Below, in pieces: positions 5,080 to 60,869 of a stretch of DNA of 64,000 nt. The stretch comes from a virus: the IMG/VR virus record IMGVR_UViG_3300045988_100041. One strand, written 5' to 3'. Under the pieces are notes generated by a model. It searched no databases, was not told the origin of the DNA, and saw only the letters and a program-made list of their open reading frames with translations. A program made the translations under genes and the position numbers. The stretch's first letter is position 1. Each line of letters opens with the position of its first letter.

Positions 5080-5270
5080 TGAGAATGATTTATTTGGCAA
5101 TCAACTGGATGATCGTCTTGGTGATGACCGGCGGCGGCATCGTATTTCTCGTAGAAGCGTTCCGGAAGGACCTGTTTAAGACATTCAGCGAGGCGGCAAC
5201 ATTTGGGTCAATCGGAACCTTGTGCGTTATGATCGGGATGCTGTTTCTTTTGAACATCGTCTTTGTATGA
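5073..5270 (+). CDS. small membrane protein
   Basis: Two hydrophobic spans (IYLAINWMIVLVMTGGGIVFLV, FGSIGTLCVMIGMLFLLNIVF). Confidence 0.5.
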   Translation: MLVRMIYLAINWMIVLVMTGGGIVFLVEAFRKDLFKTFSEAATFGSIGTLCVMIGMLFLLNIVFV

Positions 5271-5392
5271 CGCTCAGAGGCGCATCATGCGGAATTGAAA
5301 TCCAGAAGGGTTGGATACCAAGGAAGCATAAACAGGGCGCAGGCAGCCACTGGCGGCTTGACGCGCGCGAATAAATGGGGCGGGAGAAGAAA

Positions 5393-5827
5393 ATGCTTAA
5401 CAGAATCACAATTCAGGGCAGAATGGTCAAAAATCCGGAGATGCGGATGACGCAGAGCGGAACGCCGGTCACGTCCTTCACGCTTGCCGTTGAAAGAGAC
5501 TTTGCAAACGGGACGGGAGCAAAAGAAACGGACTTTATTGACTGCGTTTCGTTCAGAAGCACAGCAGAGTTTGCGTCGAAGTATTTCCGGAAGGGAAGTC
5601 TGACGGTTGCCTCCGGGCGGCTGCAGATCAGAAATTGGGAGGACAAGGACGGAAACAAGCGAAGAAACGCAGAGGTCGTTGTGGATGCAATATATTTTGC
5701 AGAGCGAAAGCGCGATGACGCTGCGCCGGAAGATCACGCATCGCCTTCGTATCCGGAAAGCACGCAGCCTTCGTTTTCCGGCGGGTTTACGGAACTGACG
5801 GATTCGGATGATGAACTGCCGTTTTGA
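5393..5827 (+). CDS. ssb: single-stranded DNA-binding protein
   Basis: OB-fold N-terminus MLNRITIQGRMVKNPEMRMTQSG and GRLQIRNWEDKDGNKRRNAEVVVD. Acidic tip DSDDELPF. Confidence 0.9.
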   Translation: MLNRITIQGRMVKNPEMRMTQSGTPVTSFTLAVERDFANGTGAKETDFIDCVSFRSTAEFASKYFRKGSLTVASGRLQIRNWEDKDGNKRRNAEVVVDAIYFAERKRDDAAPEDHASPSYPESTQPSFSGGFTELTDSDDELPF

Positions 5828-5851
5828 CTTTTGCGGAGGTAGAACGACTAT

Positions 5852-6076
5852 ATGAAGGTCAAGAAATGTCCGTTTTGTGGAGAAGAACAAGATATTCACA
5901 TGAGAGCAAACTACTCCCCAAAAATGCGAGTATGGCTAGTTTTTATCAAGTGTGAAGTATGCGGAGGCCAAACAAAGGTATTTCCGTGCGAAGAAGATCC
6001 GGAATCGGAAGAGTGGGAGAACGATGCCTGTGTAAAAGCACTCAGGGCGTGGAACAAAAGAAATGGGAGAAATTGA
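5852..6076 (+). CDS. Lar-family-like zinc-ribbon protein (possible restriction alleviation)
   Basis: KCPFCG ... CEVCG ... ALRAWNKRNG resembles the Lar family signature. Confidence 0.6.
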   Translation: MKVKKCPFCGEEQDIHMRANYSPKMRVWLVFIKCEVCGGQTKVFPCEEDPESEEWENDACVKALRAWNKRNGRN

Positions 6077-6078
6077 GC

Positions 6079-6954
6079 ATGGCAGAAAAGAGAATGTTTA
6101 CGAAATCGATTATTGACAGCGACGCTTTTCTTGAAATGCCACTTTCGGCGCAAGCGCTTTATTTTCACCTGAACATGAGAGCCGATGACGACGGATTCAT
6201 AAAAAACCCAAACCGAATCACAAGCTACGTTGGCGCATCGATCGATGATTTGCGGATATTGCTTGTTAAGCGATTTGTTATCCGTTTCGACTCTGGCGTG
6301 ATCGTAATAAAACACTGGCGTATGCACAATACGCTGAAAAGCGACCGCTATCATCCGACAGAATATCAAGATGAACTTGCGCTTCTCTGCGTCAAGCCTA
6401 ATAAGGCATATACAGAGAAAATTCCGGAACAAGATGACATTCCGGAATTGCAAGAATCAAGTGAAAATTCCAGTGGAACCAAATTGGAACCAGAACGGAA
6501 CCAGAATGGAACCTCAGACTTAGGTTTAGGTTTAGACTTAGATTTAGGTTTAGGTTTAGGTTTAGAAAAGAGTTTAACAGTATCTAATGATACTGTTTGT
6601 TGGACAAAAGATGTCCAACGGGTACTGGATGTGTGGAACTCGCTGGGATTAAACAAGATTCAGAAGATCTCAAAGGACACAAACCGAGGAAAAATGCTAA
6701 ATGCACGGTTAAAAGAATACGGAGCGGATACGGTCGTCAATGCAATCGAGCGTATTAAGAAAAGTTCTTTCCTCAAGGGACAGAACCGGAGCGGATGGAC
6801 AATCGTCTTTGACTGGTTCATAAAGCCGAACAACTTCATCAAGGTCATGGAAGGGAATTACGATGACAACACCGGATCAACACAACCGCCACTCAATCCG
6901 AACAAGAACCAGGTGCAGACAGACTACGGTTCACCGGAGGACTTTTACAGATGA
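6079..6954 (+). CDS. phage replisome organizer (DnaD-like C-terminal domain)
   Basis: N-terminus MFTKSIIDSDAFLEMPLSAQALYFHLNMRADDDGFI. C-terminal part resembles a DnaD-type domain. Sits upstream of the DnaC-like loader. Confidence 0.7.
   Translation: MAEKRMFTKSIIDSDAFLEMPLSAQALYFHLNMRADDDGFIKNPNRITSYVGASIDDLRILLVKRFVIRFDSGVIVIKHWRMHNTLKSDRYHPTEYQDELALLCVKPNKAYTEKIPEQDDIPELQESSENSSGTKLEPERNQNGTSDLGLGLDLDLGLGLGLEKSLTVSNDTVCWTKDVQRVLDVWNSLGLNKIQKISKDTNRGKMLNARLKEYGADTVVNAIERIKKSSFLKGQNRSGWTIVFDWFIKPNNFIKVMEGNYDDNTGSTQPPLNPNKNQVQTDYGSPEDFYR
6475..6567. repeat. ori-like repeat block inside the replisome-organizer gene
   Basis: Four GGAACC boxes start at 6475, 6486, 6497 and 6508, exactly 11 bp apart. 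Eight tandem hexamers TTAGGT/TTAGAC/TTAGAT/TTAGAA follow at 6520-6567. Confidence 0.55.
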
Positions 6955-7880
6955 GTGATATGCAGGAGCTGCTGGACATGGCGGCAAAAAAACGGCAGCC
7001 GGCGAAGACAGACGAAAGCGAAGCGCTTGAAAAGGCAGAGGGCTTTGCCGGGATTGCGGCAAAAAACGTCGTGAGGGACACTGCGACAGAGGCGGCAGGA
7101 GACGATGGGCTTCTGCGCTGCACAAGATGCGGCGGAAAGCGGCAGGCGAGAATCACAATATGCGACGAGAAAACCGGAAGGACAAAGGAACTGATCGTTC
7201 CTTGCATATGCCGGTGCATGCAGGAGGAAGATGCCAAAAAACAGGCGGATAACGCGGAGAAAGAGGAATCTGAACGGATCTCACGTCTGAAAAGAGCTGC
7301 GTTTGCAGAACAAACAATGCTGGATTATACGTTTGCGCGCGATGATCGGGCAAACCCGAAGATCTCGGCAGCGCTTAGAACATACTGTGACAATTTCCCC
7401 AGATTTCGCCGGGAAGGGAAGGGAATCATCCTGTATGGCTCTGTCGGGACAGGAAAAAGCTTTCTGGCGGCTTGCGTTGTAAATGAGCTGGTCAGCAAGG
7501 GCTATGCGTGCCAGATGACAACTTTTTCAAGGCTCACAAACCAGATCGGGGCAATCTGGAACGGAAAGCAGGAATACATTGACCAGATTGCGAGGCTTTC
7601 TTTGATTGCGATAGACGATCTTGGCGTGGAACGGGACACGGAGTACATGAACGAAAACATTACGACGATTTTAGATTCCCTCTACGCGGCAAAGGTTCCC
7701 ATGATTATCACGAGCAATTACAGCCCGAAGCAGATGACCGCAGAGACAGACATTCGCAGGAAACGGATATTTGACCGCATTCTGGAACGGTGCCATCCGA
7801 TTGAGATGACCGGGGAAAGCCGAAGAAAAAAGATAGGAAGAAATGACTATCTGGAAATGAAGGCTATATTGGGGGTGTGA
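6951..7880 (+). CDS. DnaC/IstB-like AAA+ helicase loader
   Basis: Walker A LYGSVGTGKSFLA, Walker B LIAIDDLGVE. N-terminal CxxC...C.C cluster. Confidence 0.8.
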   Translation: MSDMQELLDMAAKKRQPAKTDESEALEKAEGFAGIAAKNVVRDTATEAAGDDGLLRCTRCGGKRQARITICDEKTGRTKELIVPCICRCMQEEDAKKQADNAEKEESERISRLKRAAFAEQTMLDYTFARDDRANPKISAALRTYCDNFPRFRREGKGIILYGSVGTGKSFLAACVVNELVSKGYACQMTTFSRLTNQIGAIWNGKQEYIDQIARLSLIAIDDLGVERDTEYMNENITTILDSLYAAKVPMIITSNYSPKQMTAETDIRRKRIFDRILERCHPIEMTGESRRKKIGRNDYLEMKAILGV

Positions 7881-10063: not shown

Positions 10064-11188
10064 TTATTCGGCATCCACGTTGTATATTCCCTCATAGAAC
10101 CGCTCCATTTCCATAGAATGAATGTCTCGTTCCTTTTGAGATTCTTGGATGTAGTAATCGTGAACGATATTCACATCATCCCATCCGCCAATCTCCATAG
10201 TCCGCTGCTCAGTCCAGCCGAGATGATAGGCGAGGGAAGCAAAAGACCTGCGCAGACCATGCACGCCCACTTTTGGAAGATCATTTTCTTGGCAGACACG
10301 GTTTATCTGACTCCATATCGTATTGGGGTTGCAGGTAACAAGCTTGGTCCGATCCTTTGGGATGATCTCAAGAAGCCTCGGAATGATAATAGGAACGCTT
10401 CTGGTTGAGGTCTGCGTCTTGTTTGTTTCCTTGTGAACAAGCTGGTTGTTTTCGTCGTATACGGTTGCTCCGGATACGCGAATGTAGCTGATTTTTCCAC
10501 TTGGAGATATAATGATGTCGCTTCGATCTAAGTCTATGATTTCTGAGCGGCGAAGAGAATGCAGACCAAGAAGCGCAGGGAGTTCACACGGCTTTCCTTT
10601 GATTGCTTTGATGAATAGCGGAATCTGCTCATAATCCAAGTATGGCTGCCCGCCTTTTTTGAACTTCGGAAGTTGGACATTTGGCGGGTCTACGCCGGCA
10701 AAACGCATTGCAGTTGAAACAACTGTCCAGCGGTTGCAAACTGTCTTTGGGGCGACAATGGATGTCTCGCGGCTGATCGCCATCTGCCAATCGATAGGCT
10801 TTGAAAGATCGCAGTCCATATATTCTTTAAATGCGTTGCGCTGAACCGTTCCGTATTCCCGTATTGTAGATGGGGAGACAATGCCTTTCTTTTCTTCCAT
10901 CATCTTTGAGATGGCTTGTCGGCAGGTTATCTTTGGCAAGCTCTTCTTTGATTCAATAAATCCTGCGCGTATGGCCTTTGCTTTTGATATGCAAAGGTCT
11001 TTTGTTTTTTCGGTGATACTTTGCTTCTCTGCGTCCAGATAAATCCGCCAGCTGCCGCTTGGAAGCTTCTTTGGGGTTGGAACCTTGATTTCGTCTTTCT
11101 TCTTTCGCTCTTTGAGAAGCTTTTCCCCACACCAGTTGCAGAAGATGGAGTTTTCCGGGACAGTTCTGCCACAAAACTTACATTCCAT
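10064..11188 (-). CDS. int: tyrosine integrase with N-terminal zinc ribbon
   Basis: CKFCG...CNWCG at the N-terminus. C-terminal HSLRRSE, HGLRRSFASLA and VHDYY recombinase-like residues. ATG chosen inside track ORF 10064..11326. Confidence 0.9.
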   Translation of the reverse strand: MECKFCGRTVPENSIFCNWCGEKLLKERKKKDEIKVPTPKKLPSGSWRIYLDAEKQSITEKTKDLCISKAKAIRAGFIESKKSLPKITCRQAISKMMEEKKGIVSPSTIREYGTVQRNAFKEYMDCDLSKPIDWQMAISRETSIVAPKTVCNRWTVVSTAMRFAGVDPPNVQLPKFKKGGQPYLDYEQIPLFIKAIKGKPCELPALLGLHSLRRSEIIDLDRSDIIISPSGKISYIRVSGATVYDENNQLVHKETNKTQTSTRSVPIIIPRLLEIIPKDRTKLVTCNPNTIWSQINRVCQENDLPKVGVHGLRRSFASLAYHLGWTEQRTMEIGGWDDVNIVHDYYIQESQKERDIHSMEMERFYEGIYNVDAE

Positions 11189-11360
11189 TTTGAAGCTCCT
11201 CCAACGCGCAGATCGCGGCGTCGCGCTCTTGCATAATACGAAGAAATTCCTGCTTGAGAACATAGAACTGCTCGGCGCAGAGTCCGAACTGCGGCGCGAG
11301 CTTGATATTTTCGTCCAGCGCGTCAAGAACGACCTGATCGCGCTCAGTTGGTGATTTCAT
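11178..11360 (-). CDS. small hypothetical protein (possible excisionase or regulator)
   Basis: ATG follows CAGGAGAAAAATT. Overlaps the integrase start by 11 nt. 60 aa. Confidence 0.4.
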   Translation of the reverse strand: MKSPTERDQVVLDALDENIKLAPQFGLCAEQFYVLKQEFLRIMQERDAAICALEELQNGM

Positions 11361-11401
11361 AATTTTTCTCCTGAAAATTTGAGTATGTGCGCAGAAAAAG
11401 C

Positions 11402-12037
11402 CTATGGCTTTGGTGTTGATTTTCGATAGCGGATAAGAACTCTGGCAATGATAACCGTGACAGTTATAGCAGATAGGATCAGAAGCAAAACGAAGATCCA
11501 TGCAAAAAAGCCTAGGTTTCCGAACTGGATCAAGCCGGCGTTCCGGATATCGGAGTCAATAATCAGGTAAACGACGAGCGAAAAGGAAAGAACAGCGCAT
11601 AGCGCGATCAGGACATAGATGACTGGGGTTTTGATGGACAGCTGCTGATAAAGAAGATCAGACTTTTCTTTCTGATGCGCGGCTTCGTCCTGCGCAAGAT
11701 GAAGATCACCGCGAAGTCGGTTCAACTCTGCGTCCTTCTTCGCAGAGGAAAGCTCAATGCTGTGGATGGATTCTTGAAGGACAGAGGAATCTTCTGCGTC
11801 AGGAGAAAGCCCCATCAGCTCGTTCAGGGACATGCCCATTGTGTCGGCAAAGGCTGCGGCGTTGAAAAGAAGTGGGTTTGACTGAGAACCGGAATTGACA
11901 CGGCTGGTGTTGGAGTAAGGAACGCCGGAACGTTCGGAAAGTTCATTTACGGTAAGACCGAGTTCAAGTCGTCTCTGCTTGATGCGCCCACAATAGGCTT
12001 CAAAATATGGCGATAGTTTTTCCATTGATGTCTGCAT
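11402..12037 (-). CDS. membrane-anchored XRE-family HTH protein
   Basis: N-terminal HTH LGLTVNELSERSGVPYSNTSRVNSG, a central coiled segment and two C-terminal hydrophobic spans. ATG 7 nt after GGAGG. Confidence 0.7.
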   Translation of the reverse strand: MQTSMEKLSPYFEAYCGRIKQRRLELGLTVNELSERSGVPYSNTSRVNSGSQSNPLLFNAAAFADTMGMSLNELMGLSPDAEDSSVLQESIHSIELSSAKKDAELNRLRGDLHLAQDEAAHQKEKSDLLYQQLSIKTPVIYVLIALCAVLSFSLVVYLIIDSDIRNAGLIQFGNLGFFAWIFVLLLILSAITVTVIIARVLIRYRKSTPKP

Positions 12038-12485
12038 GATACGCCTCCATAAAAAAATGTTCGATTCAGGTCTGAAAAATGCGATTTGAGATAGGCATTT
12101 CGCAAAACAGGGGAGAGATTCGCAAACTGGAAAGTGGACTGCTCAAAAAGATTCTGCTACGATGGAAGCGCAGCAGATGGGCAGTATAAGGGTGCTTCTG
12201 CTATGGGTTTTGTCGTCTCTGGCACAGGCGGCAGAACCGTTTCACAAACGTTGTGTCCAATAACAAGTCCTAATTGGGTTGGAATGGCGTAGAAAAATGA
12301 AAGAAAAATTTGTGAAAGATTCGGAATTGAATTTATCGAACATAAGTTCTAAGATAAATAAGCTACGAAACACAGCGGAACACGAAAACATAGGAGGGAT
12401 GAAAAAGTGGGAAATCCGGTAATGCGAAAAGAAGTTGACCAGGAGTTTGCAGAGATTTTGAAGAAGATGACGCAAAGCCAGAAAG

Positions 12486-12833
12486 TTAGTCTTCGGAAGA
12501 AGCTAAAAGACCTCTTGCAAAATCCTTTATACGCTGACGACCGAGATCGTTGAGCCGCAGGTAAAGCTCAATCAGCTCCGGATCGTCGATTGCCCCGGCA
12601 TTGGAAACAGTGCCGGGGTTATTTTTTTGCGCATTTTGCGGGCGGCACATGAGTTCGTCCTCTGAGACACCGAAATAATCGCAAAGAAGCAGGACGGTTC
12701 GCGGCTGTGGCATGGAAAGACCGGAAAGCCAGTTTCGGACGGTTGTCTGAGAACAATGGATGTCGTTTGCGACTTTGTAAGCAGATAGTTTCCTTTCCTT
12801 CATAAGTTGATCTAATTTTTGTGAAAATTCCAT
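12486..12833 (-). CDS. cI-like XRE-family repressor
   Basis: KLSAYKVANDIHCSQTTVRNWLSG HTH. Divergent from the Cro-like gene. Confidence 0.75.
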   Translation of the reverse strand: MEFSQKLDQLMKERKLSAYKVANDIHCSQTTVRNWLSGLSMPQPRTVLLLCDYFGVSEDELMCRPQNAQKNNPGTVSNAGAIDDPELIELYLRLNDLGRQRIKDFARGLLASSED

Positions 12834-53915: not shown

Positions 53916-54143
53916 ATGAACAACAAATGGTGGCAGGTGCTGATTTCGAATCTTTTCAAGGTGAAGTCGCTCGTGACGATCATGCTGACATCGGCTTTCG
54001 TTGCGATGTCTTTGCGTGGGAAGGTTGAGCCGAAGGATTTCTATTCCATCATTGTGATGGTCCTGACGTTCTATTTCGGCTATCAGAGCGCGAAAACGGA
54101 AGACCAGACGGGAGGTGGCAGCGATGGCAAAGCTGGTAATTGA
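53916..54143 (+). CDS. holin-like two-TM protein
   Basis: Hydrophobic spans LVTIMLTSAFVAMSL and FYSIIVMVLTFYFGY. Overlaps the endolysin start. Confidence 0.5.
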   Translation: MNNKWWQVLISNLFKVKSLVTIMLTSAFVAMSLRGKVEPKDFYSIIVMVLTFYFGYQSAKTEDQTGGGSDGKAGN

Positions 54144-54807
54144 CAAAAGCATTCGGGCAAGCAGAATTGGCGGCAAGCGCCCTGTTTCGGCAGTTAAGGC
54201 AATCGTATTCCATTACACGGCGAACACTGGGAAAAGCGCGACTGCGAAGGGAAATGCCAGGTATTTTGCCGCAGGAAGCGAAGGACGCGCCGCCAGCGCC
54301 CATTACTGTGTTGACGAGGGTAACGTAGTATATGAGTGCGTTCCGCTCGATACGGTGGCGTGGAGCGTCGGAGACGGGAAGTCCGGAAAGTACGGAAGCC
54401 TATACAGCAACTACAACACAGTCTCCATCGAGATGGTCAGCCACACAGACGCATCAGGGACGTATTACATCCCGGAAAAGACGATGGAAAACGCGGCAAG
54501 GCTGTATCAGATGCTTTTGCCGCAGCTGCCGAACGTTCAGGCGGCAATCCGGCACTATGATGTGAGCGGAAAGCTGTGTCCGCTGCCGCTGATTAACGAG
54601 GAAAAATGGGAGAAGTTCCAGAAGCTTTTGAAGGAGGTAGATGAAGTGGTTGAAAAGAGCAAGATCATTGTAGACGGAAAGGAAGTTGCCGTTGATCGGA
54701 TTTTGAAGGACGGCACAAACTATGTAAAGGTACGCGATATTGCGGCGGCGCTCGATCTCAAGGTATCGAACAAGGGAAATATCGCGGTGCTTGAAACGAA
54801 GAAGTAA
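54124..54807 (+). CDS. endolysin: N-acetylmuramoyl-L-alanine amidase with C-terminal wall-binding domain
   Basis: Amidase_2-like IVFHYTANTG ... ASAHYCVDEGNVVYECVPLDTVAWSVGD. C-terminal VDGKEVAVDRILKDGTNYVKVRDIAAALDLKV. Confidence 0.85.
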   Translation: MAKLVIDKSIRASRIGGKRPVSAVKAIVFHYTANTGKSATAKGNARYFAAGSEGRAASAHYCVDEGNVVYECVPLDTVAWSVGDGKSGKYGSLYSNYNTVSIEMVSHTDASGTYYIPEKTMENAARLYQMLLPQLPNVQAAIRHYDVSGKLCPLPLINEEKWEKFQKLLKEVDEVVEKSKIIVDGKEVAVDRILKDGTNYVKVRDIAAALDLKVSNKGNIAVLETKK

Positions 54808-54813
54808 GAGCAC

Positions 54814-54848
54814 AAAAAGCCGGGGGATCGACAATCCCTCGGCTTTTT
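54814..54848. terminator. bidirectional intrinsic terminator between convergent operons
   Basis: AAAAA-GCCGGGGGA ... TCCCTCGGC-TTTTT, a 9-bp stem with one G-U pair. Confidence 0.7.
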
Positions 54849-54862
54849 GCATATATTGGAGG

Positions 54863-55153
54863 TTATAGGTTTGAAAGCGTTCCGTCACCGATGACGACGG
54901 CGTTTGTGAGGTCGCTGCCAAGGACAAAGACTGTGACCTGAGAGCCGACAGGCGCACTTGCGATGCTCGAAACATAGGGAAGGGCGATTTCTTTGTCGAA
55001 GGGGCGCTGGACGGTGAGCTTGCCGCCGGAGGCTCTTTTTGTGACCTCGGCGCGGAAGAACCAGACATTTGAATGCGTCAGCTCTTCGACCTTTGGCTTA
55101 AAATAATCCCAGAGCCTGTCTGCAAAGCGTTTCATTTCCAGATTTTCATCCAT
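54863..55153 (-). CDS. small OB-fold-like protein (gpV/Gp138-N-like pattern, uncertain)
   Basis: ATG after CAGGAGGAACTTCCA. GGKLTVQRPFDKEIALPYVSSIASAPVGSQVTVFVLGSDLTNAVVIGDG. Confidence 0.45.
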   Translation of the reverse strand: MDENLEMKRFADRLWDYFKPKVEELTHSNVWFFRAEVTKRASGGKLTVQRPFDKEIALPYVSSIASAPVGSQVTVFVLGSDLTNAVVIGDGTLSNL

Positions 55154-55349
55154 TGGAAGTTCCTCCTGTTCTGGATTCTTCAATCAGTATCGTAAAGAAT
55201 CGATCTTCCGGCAGTTTCAGCGCCGCAGAATCAACGCTTTCGGCTTCAACGGTGATGATTTCGTTCGGTCTGTCATCACGGTAAACGACTTCGAAGGTGT
55301 ATTTTTGTTTTACTACGTTTGATCTGAGATCCAGCGTCATTCTTTCCAC
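55146..55349 (-). CDS. hypothetical protein
   Basis: Track ORF. Overlaps both neighbours. Confidence 0.45.
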   Translation of the reverse strand: MERMTLDLRSNVVKQKYTFEVVYRDDRPNEIITVEAESVDSAALKLPEDRFFTILIEESRTGGTSNG

Positions 55350-55687
55350 ACTCCCTGAACGCCGAAGGTGATGCGCAGGGTTTCTCCGGACGGCGCGGCA
55401 AAACTCACATCGTCGGCACTTGCAATGAGGGCAGATAGTCTTTTGCGGACGCTTTCGTTGAAAATTCCAACAGGAAGGGGAATGTCCAGCATGACCATAG
55501 CGTTTCGCGCGGTGTTTTCCGGGGGACGGACGGTAACGGCTGCGTGCATGAGGTGCGCGAGTTCTTCTGCCTGACGGCGAAGGTCTGCAAAGAGGTTCAT
55601 TTTCTCTTCATCAACAGAGGTTCCACGGAAGTTTTCATTTCGTTCGAGCATGGCTTCTACCATGGCGGCGGTTTTGGGATCTGTCAT
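55337..55687 (-). CDS. hypothetical protein
   Basis: ATG after AAAAGGAGAACTTATT. Confidence 0.5.
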   Translation of the reverse strand: MTDPKTAAMVEAMLERNENFRGTSVDEEKMNLFADLRRQAEELAHLMHAAVTVRPPENTARNAMVMLDIPLPVGIFNESVRKRLSALIASADDVSFAAPSGETLRITFGVQGVWKE

Positions 55688-55749
55688 AATAAGTTCTCCT
55701 TTTCAAATTGAGTTTTGATCGTCTACATATTGGATTCTACCGGGAATTT

Positions 55750-56859
55750 TCAGTTGTCCCGCTTTGCGGAAAGATTTTTCAGTTCTTTCACACACTGCGC
55801 AGTGATTTTCACTGCTTCATCGATCTTGGCAAAGTCTTTTTCCTGTTCGGCTCCGAATCTTGGCTGATATTCGTCCATCGGAAGCCGGAGCGTATAGTCA
55901 AAAGAAAACCGGACGGCGCTTCGGGCGCGTTCTTCCTGGTATCCAGCGGCAAGCAGGACTCTCGACGGCTTATTGTCTCCGCTGGAACACGCCGCACCGC
56001 CAGACACCATGACATTCTCAGAAGAAAGTCTCAGGACAAGGGCGGTATTTTCAACGCCTGGGAACGAGATATTTGCGATATAGGGAGACTGCGAAGATTT
56101 GTTTCCTTCGTAGACGCTGCCGTTTAATTTTGCGTCCGGGATCTCGTTCATCATACCATCAATGAGCCGGTCGTGCAAGCGGCCTGCCATTTCTGCAAAC
56201 TCCGCAAGATGCTGTGTCCGGAACCAGAGCGCCTGAGAAAACGCCGCAGCGAGTGCGACAGAAGGGGTTGCGAAATGTTCCAGTTCATAGATGCTTTCCG
56301 GATCTTTTGCAATCAGAACACCGATGCCGACGGGCGCGCCGAATTTATGGCCGCCGCCTGCAATGTAGTCGATTCCGTCCGACTTGTAATTGAGCTGGAA
56401 TTTTCCCATGGCTGCGGTGCAGTCGGAAAAGCATACATTCCACGCGCCTGTGTTTTCTAGGTCGTAAATGAATCCGGTTTCGTTGCAGGTGTGGATATGC
56501 GCAAGAGCGGCTTCTTTTTTGCGGGACCTGCTGTGAATCTTACCGTAATCGGGAAGTCTTTTATAGACTGCGTCGTGTTCGTAGGAAGAACAAAGCGCGT
56601 CTCGATAATCGTTCAGGAGGCGAAGCGCTGCAAGGCGGCAGCTTTCGGTGGCGCTGGATGTGAAGATGACCTGCTCCGGTTCGCAGTTTATGCACGCTGC
56701 GACGATTTTTTTCTGTTCCTGCAAAAAGGCGTTGTTTCTTGTCCCGCTTGCGTGGATGCTGTTTGGATTCCCGACTTCACCACGGCATACCCTTGCAAAT
56801 TCGCGCATGGATGAGGAAAGCACCGGCGATGTGGCTGCGTAGTCGAGGTAGATCAGCAT
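55750..56859 (-). CDS. class-V aminotransferase / cysteine desulfurase (NifS/IscS-like)
   Basis: YLDYAATSP, GNPNSIH, SSYEHDAV, FSDCTAA, GGGHKFGAPVGIGVL (PLP lysine) and VSGGAACSSG (active-site Cys loop). Confidence 0.8.
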   Translation of the reverse strand: MLIYLDYAATSPVLSSSMREFARVCRGEVGNPNSIHASGTRNNAFLQEQKKIVAACINCEPEQVIFTSSATESCRLAALRLLNDYRDALCSSYEHDAVYKRLPDYGKIHSRSRKKEAALAHIHTCNETGFIYDLENTGAWNVCFSDCTAAMGKFQLNYKSDGIDYIAGGGHKFGAPVGIGVLIAKDPESIYELEHFATPSVALAAAFSQALWFRTQHLAEFAEMAGRLHDRLIDGMMNEIPDAKLNGSVYEGNKSSQSPYIANISFPGVENTALVLRLSSENVMVSGGAACSSGDNKPSRVLLAAGYQEERARSAVRFSFDYTLRLPMDEYQPRFGAEQEKDFAKIDEAVKITAQCVKELKNLSAKRDN

Positions 56860-57368
56860 GGCGCGGTCCCTCCGAAGTTTGGAACGAAGGAAGAAAGAAG
56901 CTGATGATAGAACTTATTTTGCGCCTGCAGCTCAATGCACCGCTCTTTCAGCGAGGATAGTTCTGCGTCCGGTTCTTTGGAAACGGGAAGCACGCCGGAA
57001 GGCCCCGGATTTTTGGGTTCATTTGCGCCGCTCAGACCGATGGACACCAGAAGGGCGCTGTCTACGAGCTGCATTTCATGCTGCTCCAAGGTCGAGATAT
57101 AGCTTCCAAGGCGTTCTTTGCTGACGGTATAGATGTTTTCACACAGGACGGTATTTTTCACGCCTTTCATTGTGATTTCCACGTGCGTCGGAAGGGGCTT
57201 TTTCTTCTCTGCGGTCGTTAAGTAGCAGATCTCTATGTTCGGAGAAAATAGGTTATTTTTCTCGTTTGAAACGACAACGGCAGGTCTTGACTTGCGAATT
57301 TCACTTCCAAGCCCGTCTTTCCAGTTATCTACCCAGAAAATATCGCCGCGATGGATGCTACGTTCCAT
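56853..57368 (-). CDS. MazF/PemK-fold toxin-like protein with C-terminal extension
   Basis: IHRGDIFWVDNWKDGLGSEIRKSRPAVVVSNEKNN ... ICYLTTAEKKKPLPTHVEI ... LCENIYTVSKERL, plus a roughly 60-aa tail. Its stop overlaps the desulfurase start by 7 nt. Confidence 0.7.
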   Translation of the reverse strand: MERSIHRGDIFWVDNWKDGLGSEIRKSRPAVVVSNEKNNLFSPNIEICYLTTAEKKKPLPTHVEITMKGVKNTVLCENIYTVSKERLGSYISTLEQHEMQLVDSALLVSIGLSGANEPKNPGPSGVLPVSKEPDAELSSLKERCIELQAQNKFYHQLLSSFVPNFGGTAPC

Positions 57369-57469
57369 TTCTTTCGTCCTTTCTTTCACATTTTTCTATG
57401 TACGGCGGCACGTCCGCACGATATGCCGCCTATTCAGTTTAATTGCGTTTGAACTGAATATTGAGGGTG

Positions 57470-57742
57470 TTATCTCACTGCGTCTTTCAGCGCCTTTGCG
57501 GGGCTGAAACGAACGACGAAGTGCTGGGGAACGTCGATGGTTTTGCCGGTATTCGGATTTCTCGACTGCTTGCTGGCGCAGTATTTCGCGGCGAATTTGC
57601 CGAAGCCCGGAACGTTCACGGTGTCATGCACGATGAGCGCTTCCTGCACCGCATCGAACACGGCATTTACTGCGCAGATCGCCTGCGTCTTCGGAACGTC
57701 CATCCGGTTCGCTACGGCGGTTACGAGTTCGTCTTTGTTCAT
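57470..57742 (-). CDS. hup: HU/IHF-family DNA-binding protein
   Basis: MNKDELVTAVANRMDV ... VPGFGKFAAKYCASKQSRNPNTGKTIDVPQHFVVRFSPAKALKDAV. Confidence 0.9.
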   Translation of the reverse strand: MNKDELVTAVANRMDVPKTQAICAVNAVFDAVQEALIVHDTVNVPGFGKFAAKYCASKQSRNPNTGKTIDVPQHFVVRFSPAKALKDAVR

Positions 57743-57769
57743 GATTTTCCTCCTTTCCCGAAAATTTCA

Positions 57770-57845
57770 TGGTGAGCCGTCCCGGAGTCGAACCGAGATT
57801 TTACCAGTTATGAGCTGGTCGCTCTAGCCTTTGAGATAACGGCCC
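57770..57845 (-). tRNA. tRNA-Met or tRNA-Ile2 (anticodon CAU)
   Basis: Hand-folded cloverleaf. Acceptor GGGCCGU/ACGGCUC, anticodon arm ACCAG-CUCAUAA-CUGGU, T-arm CUCGG-UUCGACU-CCGGG, encoded ACCA. The D-stem has one mismatch. Confidence 0.8.
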
Positions 57846-58221
57846 ATCGATTCCGGCTTGACGTACCGGCCGCGAGGTCTTGTGCACAGACCAACGGCAA
57901 ATCAGGTGATTGCACACCGTCTCCACCTTGTTATCCTCATGATGGACGATCTGAGTGGGGAGTTCCCATTTCGCTTGTTTACTCCCAAACTTCGCTATCG
58001 GCTATATCAACCCGACGACACCGCTGCCAGATGCGGAGGTTTCATTCCATCGGGGGAAGTCATCCGATGGCGGGCATGGGCGGCTTGGCAGAATCGAACT
58101 GCCTCGGGTCAGTTGCTCGTCGCTTCCCTTTACCAAATGCCGCGTGTTGCCACACTGACGCAGTGGCCGCGGAGGGTTGGCTTTATTTATAACGCGCCAC
58201 GACTCCCACAAGAGGGCGCTT
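57846..58221 (-). ncRNA. non-coding GC-rich spacer with T-loop-like hairpin; candidate part of a large structured RNA
   Basis: No credible ORF. Hairpins include GGCAG-TTCGATT-CTGCC (58087-58103, minus sense), CATCGG/CCGATG, GGTCT/AGACC and GCGCC/GGCGC. Strand is inferred from the neighbouring genes. Confidence 0.3.
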
Positions 58222-58380
58222 TGGCGGATGCGGCGGGGATTTGAACCCCGCATGGTGCAGACAGTATGCGACGAGCTTTATTCCCGTCCGAGGTGGCTGC
58301 TTGAACCCCAATAGGTTTGAGTGTGCCGCGCTTTCCTGCACCGCATACCCTTGCTACCTTTTCCATTCGGCCACGCATCC
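58222..58380 (-). ncRNA. 159-nt tRNA-like RNA with greatly extended central arm
   Basis: Nested perfect 7-bp helices 58226-58232/58374-58380 and 58264-58270/58342-58348. T-arm CGGGG-UUCAAAU-CCCCG. Class-II-like D-arm UGGCCGAAUGGAAAAGGU. 3' end is G-CCA. Confidence 0.45.
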
Positions 58381-58389
58381 ATATTTTGC

Positions 58390-58713
58390 TCAGATTTTTG
58401 CGGTACAGCGGTATTTGCAGGTTTTCCAGTCCGCGAGGCTGCACGACTCGAAGATGCAGGGTGATCCGGCGTACTCCGGCTTGTCGCAGAATTCGTGGAT
58501 CAGCTCCGGATACAGGGCGTTCATTGCAAAAAGGTTTCTTGCCGAATCCGGCCCGACAAACATCGGCTTTCCTTTCGGTGCGTAGTCACGGATCTGATAG
58601 GGGATTTCGTCCCGTTCGCTGTAGAAATGGACCGCGACCGGCGTCACGTCCTTCTCTACGACGACGTAGACATTTTTCGTGCCGTTGGTGAGATAGCGAA
58701 TGTCCAAGCTCAT
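58390..58713 (-). CDS. hypothetical protein embedded in the RNA locus
   Basis: ATG after AAGGAGGAAAACAA, inside track ORF 58390..58827. 107 aa, no motif recognised. Confidence 0.55.
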   Translation of the reverse strand: MSLDIRYLTNGTKNVYVVVEKDVTPVAVHFYSERDEIPYQIRDYAPKGKPMFVGPDSARNLFAMNALYPELIHEFCDKPEYAGSPCIFESCSLADWKTCKYRCTAKI

Positions 58714-59081
58714 TTGTTTTCCTCCTTGCTTTGTTTTCTTGGTTTTGTACAGCCTGCCTCCCGGCTCCGGAGCCGCCGTTACTCGACGCCTAGACGCTCC
58801 CGTGCAGAAGTTGGTCTGCGTCGCCACGCCGGTTTTTCTTCCATCCTTTACGCCTCACAGCGGACTGTCGGAAGGCCGGGAGGGTAAGCCACGGAACTTT
58901 TCAGCCCTGCGCCGGTGCATCGGTCGCATCCGTTTTTTCACACATTAAGCCGGAGCCAGCTAATTAAATTCGCAATCTGTCGTACTTGCACTACCTACAG
59001 ATTGAGCGGATGGCCGGATATATCGTTTCACCAAGCCTTTGGAACCTCAAAACTTTCCCTGAGTCCGCCGCAATACCCATG

Positions 59082-59155
59082 TGGAGTGCGTGAGGAGAAT
59101 CGAACTCCCACCATCAGATTGGAAGTCTGATGTTCTGCCATTAAACTACACGCAC
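59082..59155 (-). tRNA. tRNA-Gly (anticodon UCC), copy 1
   Basis: Acceptor GUGCGUG/CACGCAC, anticodon arm UCAGA-CUUCCAA-UCUGA, T-arm GGGAG-UUCGAUU-CUCCU, U73 and CCA encoded. Confidence 0.9.
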
Positions 59156-59162
59156 ATAAATG

Positions 59163-59287
59163 GCTCCCCGTTTTACTCCGGTGCGGGAGCGTTCTTCCCG
59201 AAAACCCATAGCCAGGCTTCCCAGCTTGGAGCACCGGAATCTCTGAAATGTTCCGGTGAGCGCCTTCGCTTACATGGGTGACGCTTT
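59163..59287 (-). ncRNA. structured RNA repeat, copy A (125-nt core)
   Basis: Fills the gap between the two tRNA-Gly genes. Shares its fold with copy B, with compensatory substitutions (see finding at 59163-59610). Confidence 0.55.
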
Positions 59288-59295
59288 AAAGAGTA

Positions 59296-59369
59296 TGGAG
59301 CGGCATACGGGAGTTGAACCCGCGTTTTCAGATTGGAAGTCTGACGTGCTTCCGCTGCACCAATGCCGC
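59296..59369 (-). tRNA. tRNA-Gly (anticodon UCC), copy 2
   Basis: Acceptor GCGGCAU/AUGCCGC, D-stem GUGC/GCAC, anticodon arm UCAGA-CUUCCAA-UCUGA, T-arm GCGGG-UUCAACU-CCCGU, U73 and CCA encoded. Confidence 0.9.
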
Positions 59370-59493
59370 ATAAGGCGCGCATAGGATGGAAGAGGTACAA
59401 GACCATCCCATGCACTTCCGGTCTTTCCCGGCTGCCAGAACAATCCCTATGGAGGGGCAGGCGGGAGGCTCGTGAACCACTGCCTGCATAGAA

Positions 59494-59610
59494 GCTCCCC
59501 ATTTTACTTGGGTGCGGGAGCGCTCCTACCCAAAACCAACAGCCAAGCTTCCCATCTTGGAGCGCCGGACGATTCCGGCGAGCGCCTGCGCTTACGTTGG
59601 CGGTCGCTTT
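59494..59610 (-). ncRNA. structured RNA repeat, copy B (117-nt core)
   Basis: Aligns with copy A from AAAGCG to GGGGAGC. All helices are conserved through paired changes. Confidence 0.55.
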
Positions 59611-59668
59611 TCTGCACAGAAAGGAGACATTACGCCTCGCCGCAGCAGCACAGAAGGGAGCTGCGGCA

Positions 59669-59739
59669 TGGTGGGAAAATGCGGAATTGAACCGCAGCAT
59701 GAAGGCTTTATGTTCCTCCCTAGCGCACCTGCTTTTCCC
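59669..59739 (-). ncRNA. aberrant tRNA-like element
   Basis: Canonical acceptor GGGAAAA/UUUUCCC, T-arm UGCGG-UUCAAUU-CCGCA and ACCA. There is no foldable D-arm, and the anticodon-like arm GGAGG/CCUUC carries a 9-nt loop AACAUAAAG. Confidence 0.4.
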
Positions 59740-59768
59740 GCATGGCGTGACGGGTCACGCCTTGTTTT

Positions 59769-60869
59769 CTATGCGATCTCCGACCGGCTTTTTTTGACGG
59801 TAGGCTGCGGCCGGAGGTTTGAGAAAAAATCATCGCCCTGCATTTCAAGATACCGCTTGTTGCGGTCTGCCTGACGGTCTTTTTCTTCCTGCACAAGAAG
59901 CGTCTGGCGGCGTTTCCTGCGGCTGGTGAGTTTGCCGGAATAGATCTGCGTGACTTCTGCCGATTCATGCCCGAGCTTTGCTTGCAGTTCTTCCAGAGGC
60001 ATGCCGCCGTTGAGATCGAGCCGCGCGCCGACGTGCCGCAGGTCGTGGGACCGGACATTATCTACACCTGTCACGCGCTTTACATGGCGGCGGACAAGCT
60101 CTGTCAGCCATTGACGGCTGCCGGCGTGCCAGGATTCTGCGTTGAAGTTTCTGGACGTTCTGACTTTTTCTGCGCAGGTTCCAAAGAGCGGGTCATCGTC
60201 TTTTGCATAGGAAGGGCGGATGCCGCTTTTAAGATAGAGCCTTACGGCGGTCTGCGCGATGGGCGGGAAGTCTACAACGCGGTATTTGTTGCCCTTGCCG
60301 TGCTCTACGGTCAGCTCTTCGTTTTCCCAGTCCAAGTCGGCAGGCGTGAGGGCGAGAAGTTCGCAGTTTCTGATCTCTGTGGACAGAAACAGGACGGCGA
60401 TTGCATAGTTTCGCTCCCATTCCGGAACGCCGCTTGATTTTGGGGAGTTGTTCCGCCACAAAAGTGCCGCCTGTTCGTCGGTCAGAATCTGGTCATAGGG
60501 TCTTGCATCTTCCTGACGGGTGTCCGGCATGAGGAATTTGGAGACGGGGTTTTTGTCATAAAAGCGGTAGTCTCCAAGCTGGGGAGACGAGGCGTATTCA
60601 TAAAATCCGGAAAGAACTTTCAGATACTGCTTGACGGTGGACGGTTTTCTGCCGGTTGCAAGCAGCATATCACGCCACGCCTGAATGTCTGTGAAGGATA
60701 CCTCGTGGTTCCAGTTGTCCCGATCTTCAATCATAAAGAGGCTGAACAGTTTTATCACGTTGTCGATATTTTCAACCGTATTTTCTGAGCGCCCGATGGC
60801 GATCATGTTTGAACGGTAGGAACGGTAGGCTTCCATGAACTTCTTTTCTTCCTTGATGGGCGGTGCCAT
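59769..60869 (-). CDS. second tyrosine recombinase/integrase (XerC/D-like)
   Basis: N-terminal SAM-like core-binding region, then SHDLRHVGARL and LGHESAEVTQIYSG. ATG after AAAGGAGCAATACAT. Confidence 0.85.
   Translation of the reverse strand: MAPPIKEEKKFMEAYRSYRSNMIAIGRSENTVENIDNVIKLFSLFMIEDRDNWNHEVSFTDIQAWRDMLLATGRKPSTVKQYLKVLSGFYEYASSPQLGDYRFYDKNPVSKFLMPDTRQEDARPYDQILTDEQAALLWRNNSPKSSGVPEWERNYAIAVLFLSTEIRNCELLALTPADLDWENEELTVEHGKGNKYRVVDFPPIAQTAVRLYLKSGIRPSYAKDDDPLFGTCAEKVRTSRNFNAESWHAGSRQWLTELVRRHVKRVTGVDNVRSHDLRHVGARLDLNGGMPLEELQAKLGHESAEVTQIYSGKLTSRRKRRQTLLVQEEKDRQADRNKRYLEMQGDDFFSNLRPQPTVKKSRSEIA

What the first reader, a model, noticed from the sequence alone, without database searches (positions are those of the whole stretch)
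54863..57368. Orphan MazF/PemK-like gene translationally coupled to a NifS/IscS-like cysteine desulfurase plus three unknown small genes, beside the lysis cassette
This is a leftward operon, convergent with the late genes at a bidirectional terminator. It contains five genes in order:
- a MazF-fold protein (171 aa) with a roughly 60-aa C-terminal extension;
- a 369-aa PLP enzyme that keeps the HK lysine and the GGAACSSG cysteine loop, overlapping the MazF-like stop by 7 nt;
- ORFs of 116, 67 and 96 aa.

No MazE/PemI-type antitoxin gene precedes the toxin-like gene. The upstream neighbour is HU, then the tRNA/RNA locus.

I am not aware of a described pairing of a MazF-fold RNase with a desulfurase. 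Possible roles:
- a toxin controlled by the desulfurase or a downstream small protein (a new TA or abortive-infection-type module);
- sulfur-based tRNA or nucleic-acid modification linked to the adjacent tRNAs;
- unrelated lysogenic-conversion cargo.
Basis: partly seen in the sequence, partly recalled or inferred. Interest (0 to 1): 0.7.

Follow-up and report, generated by a model that had tools for sequence, protein, structure and literature searches.

The report
Phage MazF-like RNase beside cysteine desulfurase
A gut temperate phage carries an antitoxin-less MazF-type RNase gene fused in an operon to an intact cysteine desulfurase; the pair recurs in one phage clade, but each gene also occurs without the other, so it looks like a mosaic accessory operon rather than a new toxin-antitoxin system.

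Summary
Both enzymes keep their catalytic residues, and no MazE/PemI gene or RNA repeat antitoxin is present.

The new-toxin-antitoxin interpretation is only partly supported.
- In 38 of 38 related IMG/VR phage loci (desulfurase 51-91% identical), MazF sits directly upstream of the desulfurase and overlaps it.
- A second clade (24 loci, 35-37% identical) has tRNA(CAU)-HU-desulfurase-O116-O64-integrase with no MazF.
- "Long" MazF proteins with the same conserved C-terminal helix (PHROG 1936) sit alone in the replication modules of other phages.

The conserved core is therefore tRNA-HU-desulfurase-O116-O64, and MazF looks like a clade-specific insertion.

O96 is a stand-alone copy of a tail-fibre N-terminal domain. 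O116 and O64 have no known fold or conserved cysteine.

The function of the desulfurase cassette and of the MazF tail remains unproven. This is a moderately interesting, uncharacterised variant built from known parts.

The parts
57770..57845 (-). tRNA with CAT anticodon (Met, or possibly Ile2), 27 nt upstream of HU; first conserved element of the cassette
   Evidence: ARAGORN and Rfam. A tRNA(CAT) sits immediately upstream of HU in most of the 18 loci scanned, from both clades (L132 has tRNA-Ile(TAT), L139 tRNA-Gly(TCC), L012 tRNA-Gln(TTG) and no HU).
57470..57742 (-). HU/IHF-type DNA-binding protein (90 aa)
   Evidence: Pfam Bac_DNA_binding E=4.9e-26. It precedes the desulfurase cassette in 37 of the 38 clade-A loci (L100 is cut at the contig end) and in all 24 clade-B IMG/VR loci.
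57030..57368 (-). MazF/PemK endoribonuclease core (residues 1 to about 113 of the 171-aa protein)
   Evidence: Pfam PemK_toxin 1.6e-23. Best PDB sequence matches are S. aureus and B. subtilis MazF, E about 1e-15. AF2 pLDDT is mostly 79-94 across the core. Foldseek TM-score (normalised to target) 0.80-0.88 to YdcE/MazF. R28 and T51 are invariant in 77 homologues and align to the catalytic Arg25/Thr48 of B. subtilis MazF.
56853..57029 (-). MazF C-terminal extension: Pro/Gly-rich linker (residues 114-132), then an amphipathic helix (residues 133-161, nt 56886-56972) carrying the family motif (LQAQNKFYHQLLSSF), then the stop codon
   Evidence: phrog_1936 profile covers residues 8-166. The tail motif is conserved across long MazF homologues despite variable linkers. 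AF2 gives linker pLDDT <50 and helix pLDDT about 90. The tail has no PDB sequence match.
55750..56859 (-). Class-I (IscS/NifS-type) cysteine desulfurase-like PLP enzyme, 369 aa; its start overlaps the MazF stop by 7 nt
   Evidence: Aminotran_5 2.6e-30. NifS, DndA and IscS models match far below their cut-offs. PADLOC SspA/DndA 3e-53/1e-50. PDB IscS 3e-31. H95, N126-E-T-G, D146, K172, C291 and R317 are invariant in 17 family members.
55337..55687 (-). O116: 116-aa alpha+beta protein of unknown function
   Evidence: No Pfam, PHROG, NCBIfam or PDB sequence hit. AF2 pLDDT 81.6, pTM 0.72. Foldseek finds only uncharacterised phage proteins. It accompanies the desulfurase in both clades, but distant relatives occur without it.
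55146..55340 (-). O64: 64-aa acidic protein (67 aa if read from the GTG at 55349); ATGA overlap with the O116 stop
   Evidence: Invariant TNV...F.V...EAES..AA.L.LP motif. In IMG/VR it was found only in desulfurase-bearing phage contigs. In clade B its stop lies 3 nt before the integrase start.
54863..55153 (-). O96: stand-alone homologue of the N-terminal domain of tail-fibre-like proteins; 8-nt overlap with the O64 stop
   Evidence: It aligns over its full length with the first ~96 aa of 269-594-aa glycine-rich fibre-like proteins encoded on the opposite strand in sister phages (sequences). It is 75-86% identical across clade A, where the neighbouring genes are 20-57% identical.
54813..54849 (.). 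Bidirectional intrinsic terminator shared with the lysis cassette
   Evidence: Inverted repeat of 16-nt arms, 94% complementary, flanked by T-runs on both strands (sequence).

Best explanation
The five genes are the distal end of a longer leftward accessory operon of a temperate gut phage: integrase, tRNAs, tRNA(CAU), HU, MazF, desulfurase, O116, O64, O96. The host is probably a Clostridia/Oscillospiraceae-type bacterium. The operon is a mosaic.

Conserved core. The part shared by two phage clades is tRNA(CAU)-HU-desulfurase-O116-O64, and it is always linked to the integrase.

Desulfurase. It is a catalytically competent IscS/NifS-type enzyme. It would strip sulfur from cysteine as a persulfide on Cys291. 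No sulfur-acceptor or PP-loop enzyme is encoded in the window, so it most likely feeds host acceptors such as Fe-S assembly or tRNA thiolation. This step is inferred. O64, and perhaps O116, are phage-specific accessory proteins and are not sulfur carriers.

MazF-like gene. It belongs to a widespread phage family of 'long' MazF endoribonucleases (PHROG 1936). These have an intact catalytic Arg/Thr pair, no partner antitoxin gene, and a conserved C-terminal amphipathic helix on a flexible linker. Most likely the gene was inserted between HU and the desulfurase in one clade and has been co-inherited since. A loss in the other clade cannot be excluded. It probably acts as a self-contained phage RNase, with the tail regulating or targeting it. 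It does not look like a toxin neutralised by the desulfurase.

O96. It is a separately acquired tail-fibre N-terminal domain.
For: Shown:
- Gene anatomy and couplings.
- Intact catalytic residues in both enzymes, invariant across homologues.
- MazF fold confirmed.
- The phrog_1936 profile includes the tail.
- Clade A: HU-MazF-desulfurase in 38/38 IMG/VR loci, plus L005-L011.
- Clade B: HU-desulfurase-O116-O64-integrase without MazF in 24 loci, plus L001/L012/L013.
- Long MazF without desulfurase in FP_Brigit, FP_Lagaffe and L175-L178, in replication modules with no Pfam antitoxin.
- The tail motif is conserved across the family.
- No conserved Cys in O116 or O64.
- No SGGxDS PP-loop protein in the 64-kb window.
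- O64 is restricted to desulfurase-bearing contigs.
- Distant O116 relatives lack all the partners.
- O96 matches fibre N-termini and is far more conserved than its neighbours.
Against: - The MazF stop / desulfurase start overlap is retained in all 38 clade-A loci while MazF itself diverged to 37-51% identity. This could reflect a functional link rather than simple operon inheritance.
- No biochemical evidence exists for either enzyme.
- The desulfurase scores far below every curated equivalog cut-off.
- It is about 20 residues shorter than IscS between His95 and the NETG motif.
- It replaces the PLP-contacting Gln183 of IscS with Ala, Val or Ser, so its substrate or acceptor may differ.
- How an apparently active MazF is tolerated in a lysogen is unexplained. 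The placement of the tail relative to the core is not resolved by the monomer model (pTM 0.58).
Confidence: 0.55

Rival explanations
1. MazF and the desulfurase (or O116/O64) form a new two- or three-component toxin-antitoxin or abortive-infection module. The downstream protein binds and neutralises the RNase in the lysogen and releases it on superinfection or sulfur/cysteine stress.
For: - No canonical antitoxin gene, and intact MazF catalytic residues.
- Strict adjacency with a 4-7-nt overlap in 38/38 clade-A loci.
- Location in the lysogeny-side accessory region next to the integrase.
Against: - The desulfurase-O116-O64 cassette exists without MazF in 24 or more loci.
- Long MazF exists without any of these genes in other phages.
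- Desulfurase catalytic residues are equally conserved in both clades, so its selected function is enzymatic.
- No PADLOC defence model matches MazF, O116, O64 or O96.
Confidence: 0.12
2. The long MazF is a fused, self-neutralised toxin. The conserved C-terminal helix folds back into the RNA-binding groove of the dimer as a cis-antitoxin, by analogy with fused toxin-antitoxin proteins such as CapRel. A trigger releases it, making the protein a single-gene sensor-effector.
For: - Flexible linker plus a confidently helical, family-wide conserved terminal motif.
- No consistent neighbouring gene across the family.
- The PHROG profile spans the tail.
Against: - The tail has no sequence similarity to any solved antitoxin.
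- Many database variants have the tail thrown out of frame at a homopolymer tract. One such cluster has 292 member sequences. That is hard to reconcile with an indispensable cis-antitoxin, unless the gene is silent in lysogens or the variants are sequencing errors.
- In some members the linker is a long coiled coil, which looks more like a stalk or oligomerisation element.
Confidence: 0.2
3. The locus is a translation-reprogramming module centred on tRNA. The phage supplies tRNAs, the desulfurase boosts thiolation of tRNA (s2U34 or s4U8) through host MnmA/ThiI, and MazF cleaves host mRNA or tRNA.
For: - A tRNA(CAT) immediately precedes HU in most loci scanned from both clades, and tRNA-Gln(UUG), a class of tRNA that carries 2-thiouridine in bacteria (general knowledge), is present in many clade-A loci.
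- Established knowledge: class-I desulfurases in Bacillota are dedicated to tRNA thiolation partners (YrvO-MnmA, NifZ-ThiI), and some MazF toxins cleave tRNA (PMC4756823, title and abstract seen).
Against: - No thiolation enzyme (PP-loop) is encoded in the window.
- The window's own tRNAs (CAT, and TCC twice) are not known 2-thiouridine species.
- The window shows no avoidance of UACAU, the motif cleaved by B. subtilis and S. aureus MazF (motif from general knowledge). The under-represented words are palindromes typical of restriction avoidance.
- Linkage to tRNAs may simply reflect the usual clustering of accessory genes.
Confidence: 0.13
4. The desulfurase is a DndA/SspA-type enzyme supplying sulfur for phosphorothioate modification of phage or host DNA, with HU as a DNA-binding partner.
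For: The best PADLOC matches are SspA (3.3e-53) and DndA (9.9e-51). HU is always adjacent.
Against: - No DndC/D/E or SspB/C/D homologue and no PP-loop protein in the window.
- The similarity to DndA/SspA is no better than that to generic IscS/NifS.
Confidence: 0.04

Closest known systems
MazF/EndoA (YdcE) of Bacillus subtilis and MazF of Staphylococcus aureus (type II toxin-antitoxin endoribonucleases; PDB 1NE8, 4MDX, 4MZM)
   Same: Same fold, with TM-score (normalised to target) 0.80-0.88 and 34-37% identity over about 112 residues. The catalytic Arg and Thr and the PTHVEI segment are conserved.
   Different: - No mazE/pemI gene upstream.
- A C-terminal extension of about 58 aa with a conserved helix.
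- An invariant Cys (C76) where the canonical proteins have Leu.
- Embedded in a phage operon whose next gene is a desulfurase.
PHROG 1936 'MazF-like growth inhibitor' (for example Faecalibacterium phage FP_Lagaffe gp50, 169 aa, and FP_Brigit gp83, 172 aa)
   Same: Long MazF with the same tail architecture. The profile matches residues 8-166 at E=2.6e-30. The proteins are 37-48% identical. All are orphan genes in gut Bacillota phages.
   Different: Those genes sit in early/replication modules, next to methyltransferase, deoxyribosyltransferase and HTH genes, not next to HU or a desulfurase. The family has no experimentally defined function that I could find.
Class-I cysteine desulfurases IscS/NifS (E. 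coli IscS 1P3W, M. tuberculosis IscS 4ISY) and the dedicated Bacillota enzymes YrvO and NifZ
   Same: Aminotran_5 fold. PLP lysine (K172), catalytic cysteine loop SGGAACSSG (C291), and His95, Asp146 and Arg317 are all conserved and invariant in the phage family.
   Different: - Only 25-31% identical to cellular enzymes.
- Far below all NCBIfam equivalog cut-offs.
- About 20 residues shorter after His95.
- Gln183 of IscS replaced by Ala, Val or Ser.
- No IscU, NifU, ThiI or MnmA partner gene nearby. Instead it sits next to HU, O116 and O64.
DndA / SspA (desulfurases of phosphorothioate DNA-modification systems)
   Same: Top PADLOC hits. Both are IscS-like desulfurases found on mobile elements.
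   Different: The defining partners (DndCDE, or SspBCD with SspE/FGH) are absent.
Phage-encoded cysteine desulfurase 'auxiliary metabolic genes' (phrog_12787; GenBank 'cysteine sulfinate desulfinase/cysteine desulfurase [Caudoviricetes sp.]')
   Same: The window protein matches phrog_12787 at 1.6e-42. Relatives 54-55% identical already carry that automatic name. Other phage lineages also carry IscS-like genes, for example directly after an integrase or inside a replication module.
   Different: I found no description of the conserved tRNA-HU-desulfurase-O116-O64 cassette or of the MazF coupling. No record among 50,697 GenBank phage genomes has the clade-A arrangement.

Membership tests
MazF/PemK toxin of a type II toxin-antitoxin system | PemK/MazF (SH3-like barrel) fold | tested here: met
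   Pfam PF02452 83.4 bits against a cut-off of 23.1. AF2 model matches YdcE/MazF structures with TM-score (normalised to target) 0.80-0.88.
MazF/PemK toxin of a type II toxin-antitoxin system | Catalytic Arg and Thr (B. subtilis R25/T48) | tested here: met
   R28 and T51 align to these residues and are invariant in 77 homologues.
MazF/PemK toxin of a type II toxin-antitoxin system | Adjacent cognate antitoxin gene (MazE/PemI or another proteic antitoxin), normally upstream and co-transcribed | tested here: not met
   The 101-nt gap to HU has no ORF. The downstream gene is a 369-aa enzyme. No antitoxin Pfam, NCBIfam or PADLOC hit in any neighbour. HU also occurs in loci without MazF.
MazF/PemK toxin of a type II toxin-antitoxin system | Growth inhibition by sequence-specific RNA cleavage | not testable with these tools
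   Requires expression and cleavage-site mapping. The k-mer scan gave no candidate avoided motif.
Type III toxin-antitoxin (ToxIN-like: MazF/Kid-fold toxin with an upstream RNA repeat antitoxin) | Tandem RNA repeats upstream of the toxin gene | tested here: not met
   Tandem Repeats Finder found nothing in 54700-60000. No repeat family lies upstream of MazF.
PHROG 1936 long phage MazF-like proteins | Full-length match including the C-terminal extension and its terminal helix motif | tested here: met
   E=2.6e-30, residues 8-166 matched to profile positions 5-174 of 188. The tail motif aligns with 26 other family tails.
Class-I cysteine desulfurase (IscS/NifS) | Aminotransferase class V fold with the PLP-binding Lys | tested here: met
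   PF00266 106 bits. K172 in GGGHKFG aligns to IscS K206 and is invariant.
Class-I cysteine desulfurase (IscS/NifS) | Catalytic Cys on the flexible loop (SSGSAC motif), and the substrate-binding Arg, His and Asp | tested here: met
   C291 (SGGAACSSG), R317, H95 and D146 are aligned and invariant in 17 family members.
Class-I cysteine desulfurase (IscS/NifS) | Gln contacting PLP (IscS Q183), and a score above the curated equivalog cut-off | tested here: not met
   The position is Ala, Val or Ser in the phage family. NifS scores 146.9 against 530.75 bits and IscS 104.3 against 643.2 bits.
Class-I cysteine desulfurase (IscS/NifS) | Cysteine-to-alanine desulfuration activity and persulfide transfer to an acceptor | not testable with these tools
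   No acceptor candidate is present in the operon. O116, O64 and O96 lack conserved Cys, and the window has no PP-loop protein.
Dnd / Ssp phosphorothioate modification systems | DndA/SspA together with DndCDE or SspBCD | tested here: not met
   Only the desulfurase matches. The five other proteins scanned (four operon products and the 58390-58827 ORF) had no PADLOC hit, and no SGGxDS protein is present in the window.
Fused (single-chain) toxin-antitoxin such as CapRel | A C-terminal domain that docks on and inhibits the toxin domain in cis | tested here: inconclusive
   The monomer AF2 model gives a confident helix after a disordered linker, but pTM is 0.58 and no contact information is available. 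The tail has no PDB sequence homologue. Tail-frameshifted variants are common.

The most novel reading that the evidence does not exclude
The long phage MazF proteins would be a new class of single-gene, self-regulated endoribonucleases. Their conserved C-terminal helix would act as a built-in antitoxin or trigger sensor. In some phages the protein would be switched between tailed and tail-less forms by a homopolymer tract at the core-tail junction. In this clade its output would be wired, by obligatory translational coupling, to a phage desulfurase cassette (Dsf-O116-O64) that alters host sulfur trafficking or tRNA thiolation. Together these would form a prophage-encoded defence or host-takeover unit with no described counterpart.
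Probability: 0.12. Interest if true: 0.7.

Novelty: new variant of a known kind. Interest (0 to 1): 0.4.

Why it matters
Antitoxin-less MazF genes with a conserved C-terminal helix are common in human-gut phages but uncharacterised. Learning how an apparently active RNase is kept harmless, or how it is used, would add to toxin-antitoxin and phage host-takeover biology.

The conserved tRNA-HU-desulfurase-O116-O64 cassette tied to the integrase is a second lead. It suggests that temperate phages of gut Clostridia manipulate cysteine-derived sulfur, for Fe-S clusters or thiolated tRNA, which is testable.

Neither lead is yet surprising enough to overturn current ideas. The analysis mainly replaces a speculative 'new toxin-antitoxin pair' with a better-defined, separable pair of modules.

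Tried and rejected
- **DNA similarity to GenBank phages:** no match.
- **O116 and O64:** no hit in Pfam, PHROGs, NCBIfam or PADLOC for the window's O116 and O64, nor in Pfam for selected homologues and longer O116-family members. Profile searches of PDB gave nothing. Foldseek of the O116 model against PDB found nothing below E=8e-3, and against BFVD only uncharacterised phage proteins.
- **Longer O116-family proteins:** carry no recognisable fused domain.
- **MazF tail profile against PDB:** no antitoxin-like match.
- **Sense-strand k-mer depletion test for a MazF cleavage motif:** UACAU is not avoided; only restriction-type palindromes are depleted.
- **PP-loop or sulfur-carrier motifs in all six frames:** none found.
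- **ToxI-like tandem repeats:** none found.
- **HU as antitoxin:** rejected, because HU is equally present where MazF is absent.
- **O116/O64 as persulfide carriers:** rejected, because they have no conserved cysteine.
- **Rfam scan of the upstream RNA region at a permissive threshold:** only the three tRNAs. Relaxed ARAGORN gave only noisy calls.
- **Literature searches:** no paper on a MazF-desulfurase pairing, on long MazF tails, or on this cassette.


Full report
**1. What is there**

The window is a temperate tailed-phage genome or prophage.
- Plus-strand genes run from replication functions (SNF2 helicase, methylase, DnaC-like loader, dUTPase, YqaJ), through unannotated late-region ORFs, to an Amidase_2 endolysin at 54115-54807.
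- A leftward block converges on the endolysin.
- On the minus strand, from upstream to downstream, it holds:
  - a tyrosine integrase, 59769-60869;
  - two tRNA-Gly(TCC) genes and a 107-aa ORF;
  - tRNA(CAT), 57770-57845;
  - HU, 57470-57742;
  - the five genes of the finding.
  - MazF-like ATG at 57368 (171 aa);
  - MazF stop and desulfurase start overlapping by 7 nt (ATGCTGA), with a GGAGGG ribosome-binding site;
  - a 62-nt gap before O116;
  - an ATGA overlap between O116 and O64, so the 67-aa ORF more probably starts at 55340 and gives 64 aa;
  - an ATGGATGA overlap between O64 and O96;
  - a 16-nt-arm hairpin with T-runs on both strands at 54813-54849.

**2. The two enzymes look functional**

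MazF-like protein:
- It passes the Pfam PemK cut-off.
- It is 34-37% identical to S. aureus and B. subtilis MazF.
- Its AF2 core superposes on those structures with TM-score (normalised to target) 0.80-0.88.
- R28 and T51 align with the catalytic Arg25/Thr48 of B. subtilis MazF. That residue assignment is from the literature on PDB 4MDX.
- Both residues are invariant in 77 homologues.

Desulfurase:
- It aligns with IscS/NifS across its length.
- His95, Asn126-Glu-Thr-Gly, Asp146, the PLP Lys172, the catalytic Cys291 loop and Arg317 are invariant in 17 diverse family members.
- It differs from cellular enzymes in four ways:
  - only 25-31% identity;
  - scores far below every NCBIfam cut-off;
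  - about 20 fewer residues between His95 and the NETG motif;
  - Ala, Val or Ser where IscS has Gln183.

**3. No antitoxin of a known type**
- Nothing fits between HU and MazF.
- No neighbour hits an antitoxin model.
- There are no tandem repeats that could be a ToxI-like RNA.

**4. Conservation elsewhere is the decisive evidence**

A profile of the desulfurase retrieved 80 IMG/VR loci. Iterative HMMs for each operon protein sort them into three groups.

| Group | Loci | Desulfurase identity to window | Arrangement |
|---|---|---|---|
| Clade A | 38 | 51-91% | Int ... tRNAs ... tRNA(CAT)-HU-MazF-Dsf-[variable HTH or pRha/ANT inserts]-O116-O64-(O96) |
| Clade B | 24 | 35-37% | tRNAs-tRNA(CAT)-HU-Dsf-O116-O64-Int, no MazF |
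| Others | 18 | 27-32% | None of the partner genes adjacent (an HU- or MazF-like ORF 3-4 kb away in 4 loci) |

- In clade A, MazF always overlaps the desulfurase start by 4-7 nt. Contigs found through exact protein look-ups show the same order.
- In clade B, the O64 stop lies 3 nt from the integrase start. GenBank MT835520 and two metagenome contigs agree.
- In the third group, some desulfurases follow an integrase directly and some sit in a replication module.
- In the opposite direction, a protein search found 113 MazF homologues, most of them 140-240 aa long.
- Their tails share one architecture. A variable Pro/Gly-rich or coiled-coil linker is followed by a terminal amphipathic helix with a near-invariant Tyr. 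The motif is ...ERDxYKxLYExLL...; in the window it reads LQAQNKFYHQLLSSF.
- PHROG 1936 models this full-length form.
- In FP_Brigit, FP_Lagaffe and four metagenomic contexts, these genes lie in early/replication modules. There is no desulfurase and no recognisable antitoxin.
- The pair is therefore real and old within one clade. HU, MazF, Dsf, O116 and O64 co-diverge. Neither gene needs the other.

**5. The small genes**

O116:
- AF2 gives pLDDT 81.6 and an alpha-alpha-beta-beta-alpha-beta-beta topology.
- It has no structural match with a known function.
- It belongs to a family with 161 representatives in 1.84 billion proteins.
- The 25 distant members retrieved in other phages (L179-L203) lack Dsf, HU, O64 and Int within 5 kb.

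O64:
- It has an invariant EAES..AA.L.LP core.
- In IMG/VR it was found only on desulfurase-bearing contigs, which makes it the more specific companion.

Neither O116 nor O64 has a conserved cysteine, so they are not persulfide carriers.

O96:
- It aligns over its full length with the N-terminal domain of 269-594-aa glycine-rich fibre-like proteins (sequences).
- Those proteins are encoded on the opposite strand in sister phages.
- It is much better conserved than the rest of the operon (75-86% identical across clade A), so it has a separate history.

**6. Mechanism**

Shown:
- An operon with tight translational coupling.
- Intact active sites in both enzymes.
- A conserved cassette linked to the integrase and to phage tRNAs.

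Inferred:
- The desulfurase makes a Cys291 persulfide and passes it to host acceptors, since the window encodes no PP-loop thiolase, scaffold or carrier.
- MazF is a self-contained phage RNase whose tail regulates or targets it.

Whether the tail is a cis-antitoxin is open.
- The monomer model does not fix its position (pTM 0.58).
- It resembles no solved antitoxin.
- Tail-frameshifted variants at a junctional homopolymer are frequent in sister lineages.

The tRNA-thiolation idea rests only on linkage and on general knowledge of IscS-type enzymes. A phosphorothioate role lacks the required partners.

**7. Comparison and novelty**

Each part belongs to a known kind: a MazF-fold RNase (PHROG 1936) and a phage IscS-like 'auxiliary metabolic gene' (phrog_12787). 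Relatives already carry automatic names in GenBank.

What I could not find described in four literature searches:
- the long-MazF tail motif;
- the tRNA-HU-desulfurase-O116-O64 cassette;
- the clade-specific MazF coupling.

I rate this a new variant of known kinds, of moderate interest.

The host is probably a gut Clostridia/Oscillospiraceae-type bacterium. This rests only on names attached to homologues.

Noticed in passing
window 57846-59700 (minus strand), between the integrase and HU: This mostly non-coding tRNA region is far better conserved in DNA than the flanking protein genes. L096 shares 97% nucleotide identity over 1208 nt although its proteins are 42-56% identical. L104 and L120 share 99-100% over window 57919-58079. 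Even clade-B phages share 83-87% over about 58889-58971 and about 57995-58103. This suggests conserved RNA elements or a recently exchanged mosaic block.
   Followed up: partly
window 58222-58380 (minus strand): A tRNA-like RNA of about 160 nt that ARAGORN and Rfam do not call. It has a perfect 7-bp acceptor stem (GGAUGCG/CGCAUCC), a T-arm GCGGGGUUCAAAUCCCCGC and a 3' GCCA. An insertion of about 90 nt sits in the anticodon/variable region (MFE -62.5 kcal/mol, z -2.2). A second degenerate T-arm-like element lies at about 58085-58101.
   Followed up: partly
window 58390-58713 (minus strand): A 107-aa ORF with a strong ribosome-binding site (AAGGAGG) sits inside the tRNA region. It is also called as a gene in L005 and has no Pfam hit.
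   Followed up: partly
L102 about 3360, L104 about 5800, L118 about 5800 (MazF core-tail junction); proteins P0150, P0155, P0156, P0158, P0163, P0170, P0172: In sister phages a homopolymer tract (C6, C7 or C8; poly-G in another subfamily) sits exactly at the MazF core-tail junction. Variants differing by one base throw the tail out of frame. One such variant cluster has 292 member sequences. This could be phase variation, slippage, or homopolymer sequencing error. The window's own gene has no such tract.
   Followed up: partly
window 54863-55153; L120 9025-10200(-), L128 9275-11059(-), L109 8574-9383(-): O96 is a free-standing copy of the N-terminal domain of tail-fibre-like proteins. Those proteins are encoded on the opposite strand in sister phages. 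The window has no full-length fibre with this N-terminus.
   Followed up: partly
L132 5397-5472 compared with the tRNA(CAT) position in other loci: In one clade-B phage the tRNA directly upstream of HU is tRNA-Ile(TAT) instead of tRNA(CAT). The 'tRNA-Met(CAT)' of the cassette may therefore be an AUA-reading tRNA-Ile2.
   Followed up: no
window 59163-59238 and 59494-59569: A 76-nt direct repeat (84% identity) lies upstream of each tRNA-Gly(TCC) copy, so the tRNA-Gly unit with its leader is duplicated.
   Followed up: no
window 10064-12833 (minus strand): A second integrase-family protein with a zinc-ribbon (420 aa) is followed by two HTH_3 repressor-like genes. This forms a separate leftward block inside the otherwise rightward genome.
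   Followed up: no
whole window, sense strands: Short palindromes are strongly under-represented: GGACC, GGATC, CCAGG/CCTGG, GAGCTC (0 observed against 15.7 expected), GGCGCC, CCGCGG and ACGCGT. This is typical of restriction-site avoidance.
   Followed up: no
L158-L161 and L172 (Int 5015-5974, Dsf 5995-7053); L157 and L162: Other phage lineages carry unrelated IscS-like desulfurases (27-32% identical). In some the gene starts about 20 nt after an integrase gene. In others it lies inside a Pol III alpha / RecD-like helicase / dUTPase replication module.
   Followed up: partly
L097 7726-8457, L103 7508-8236: In some clade-A phages the O64 domain forms the C-terminal 60 aa of a 243-aa protein. 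The N-terminal part has no recognisable domain.
   Followed up: no
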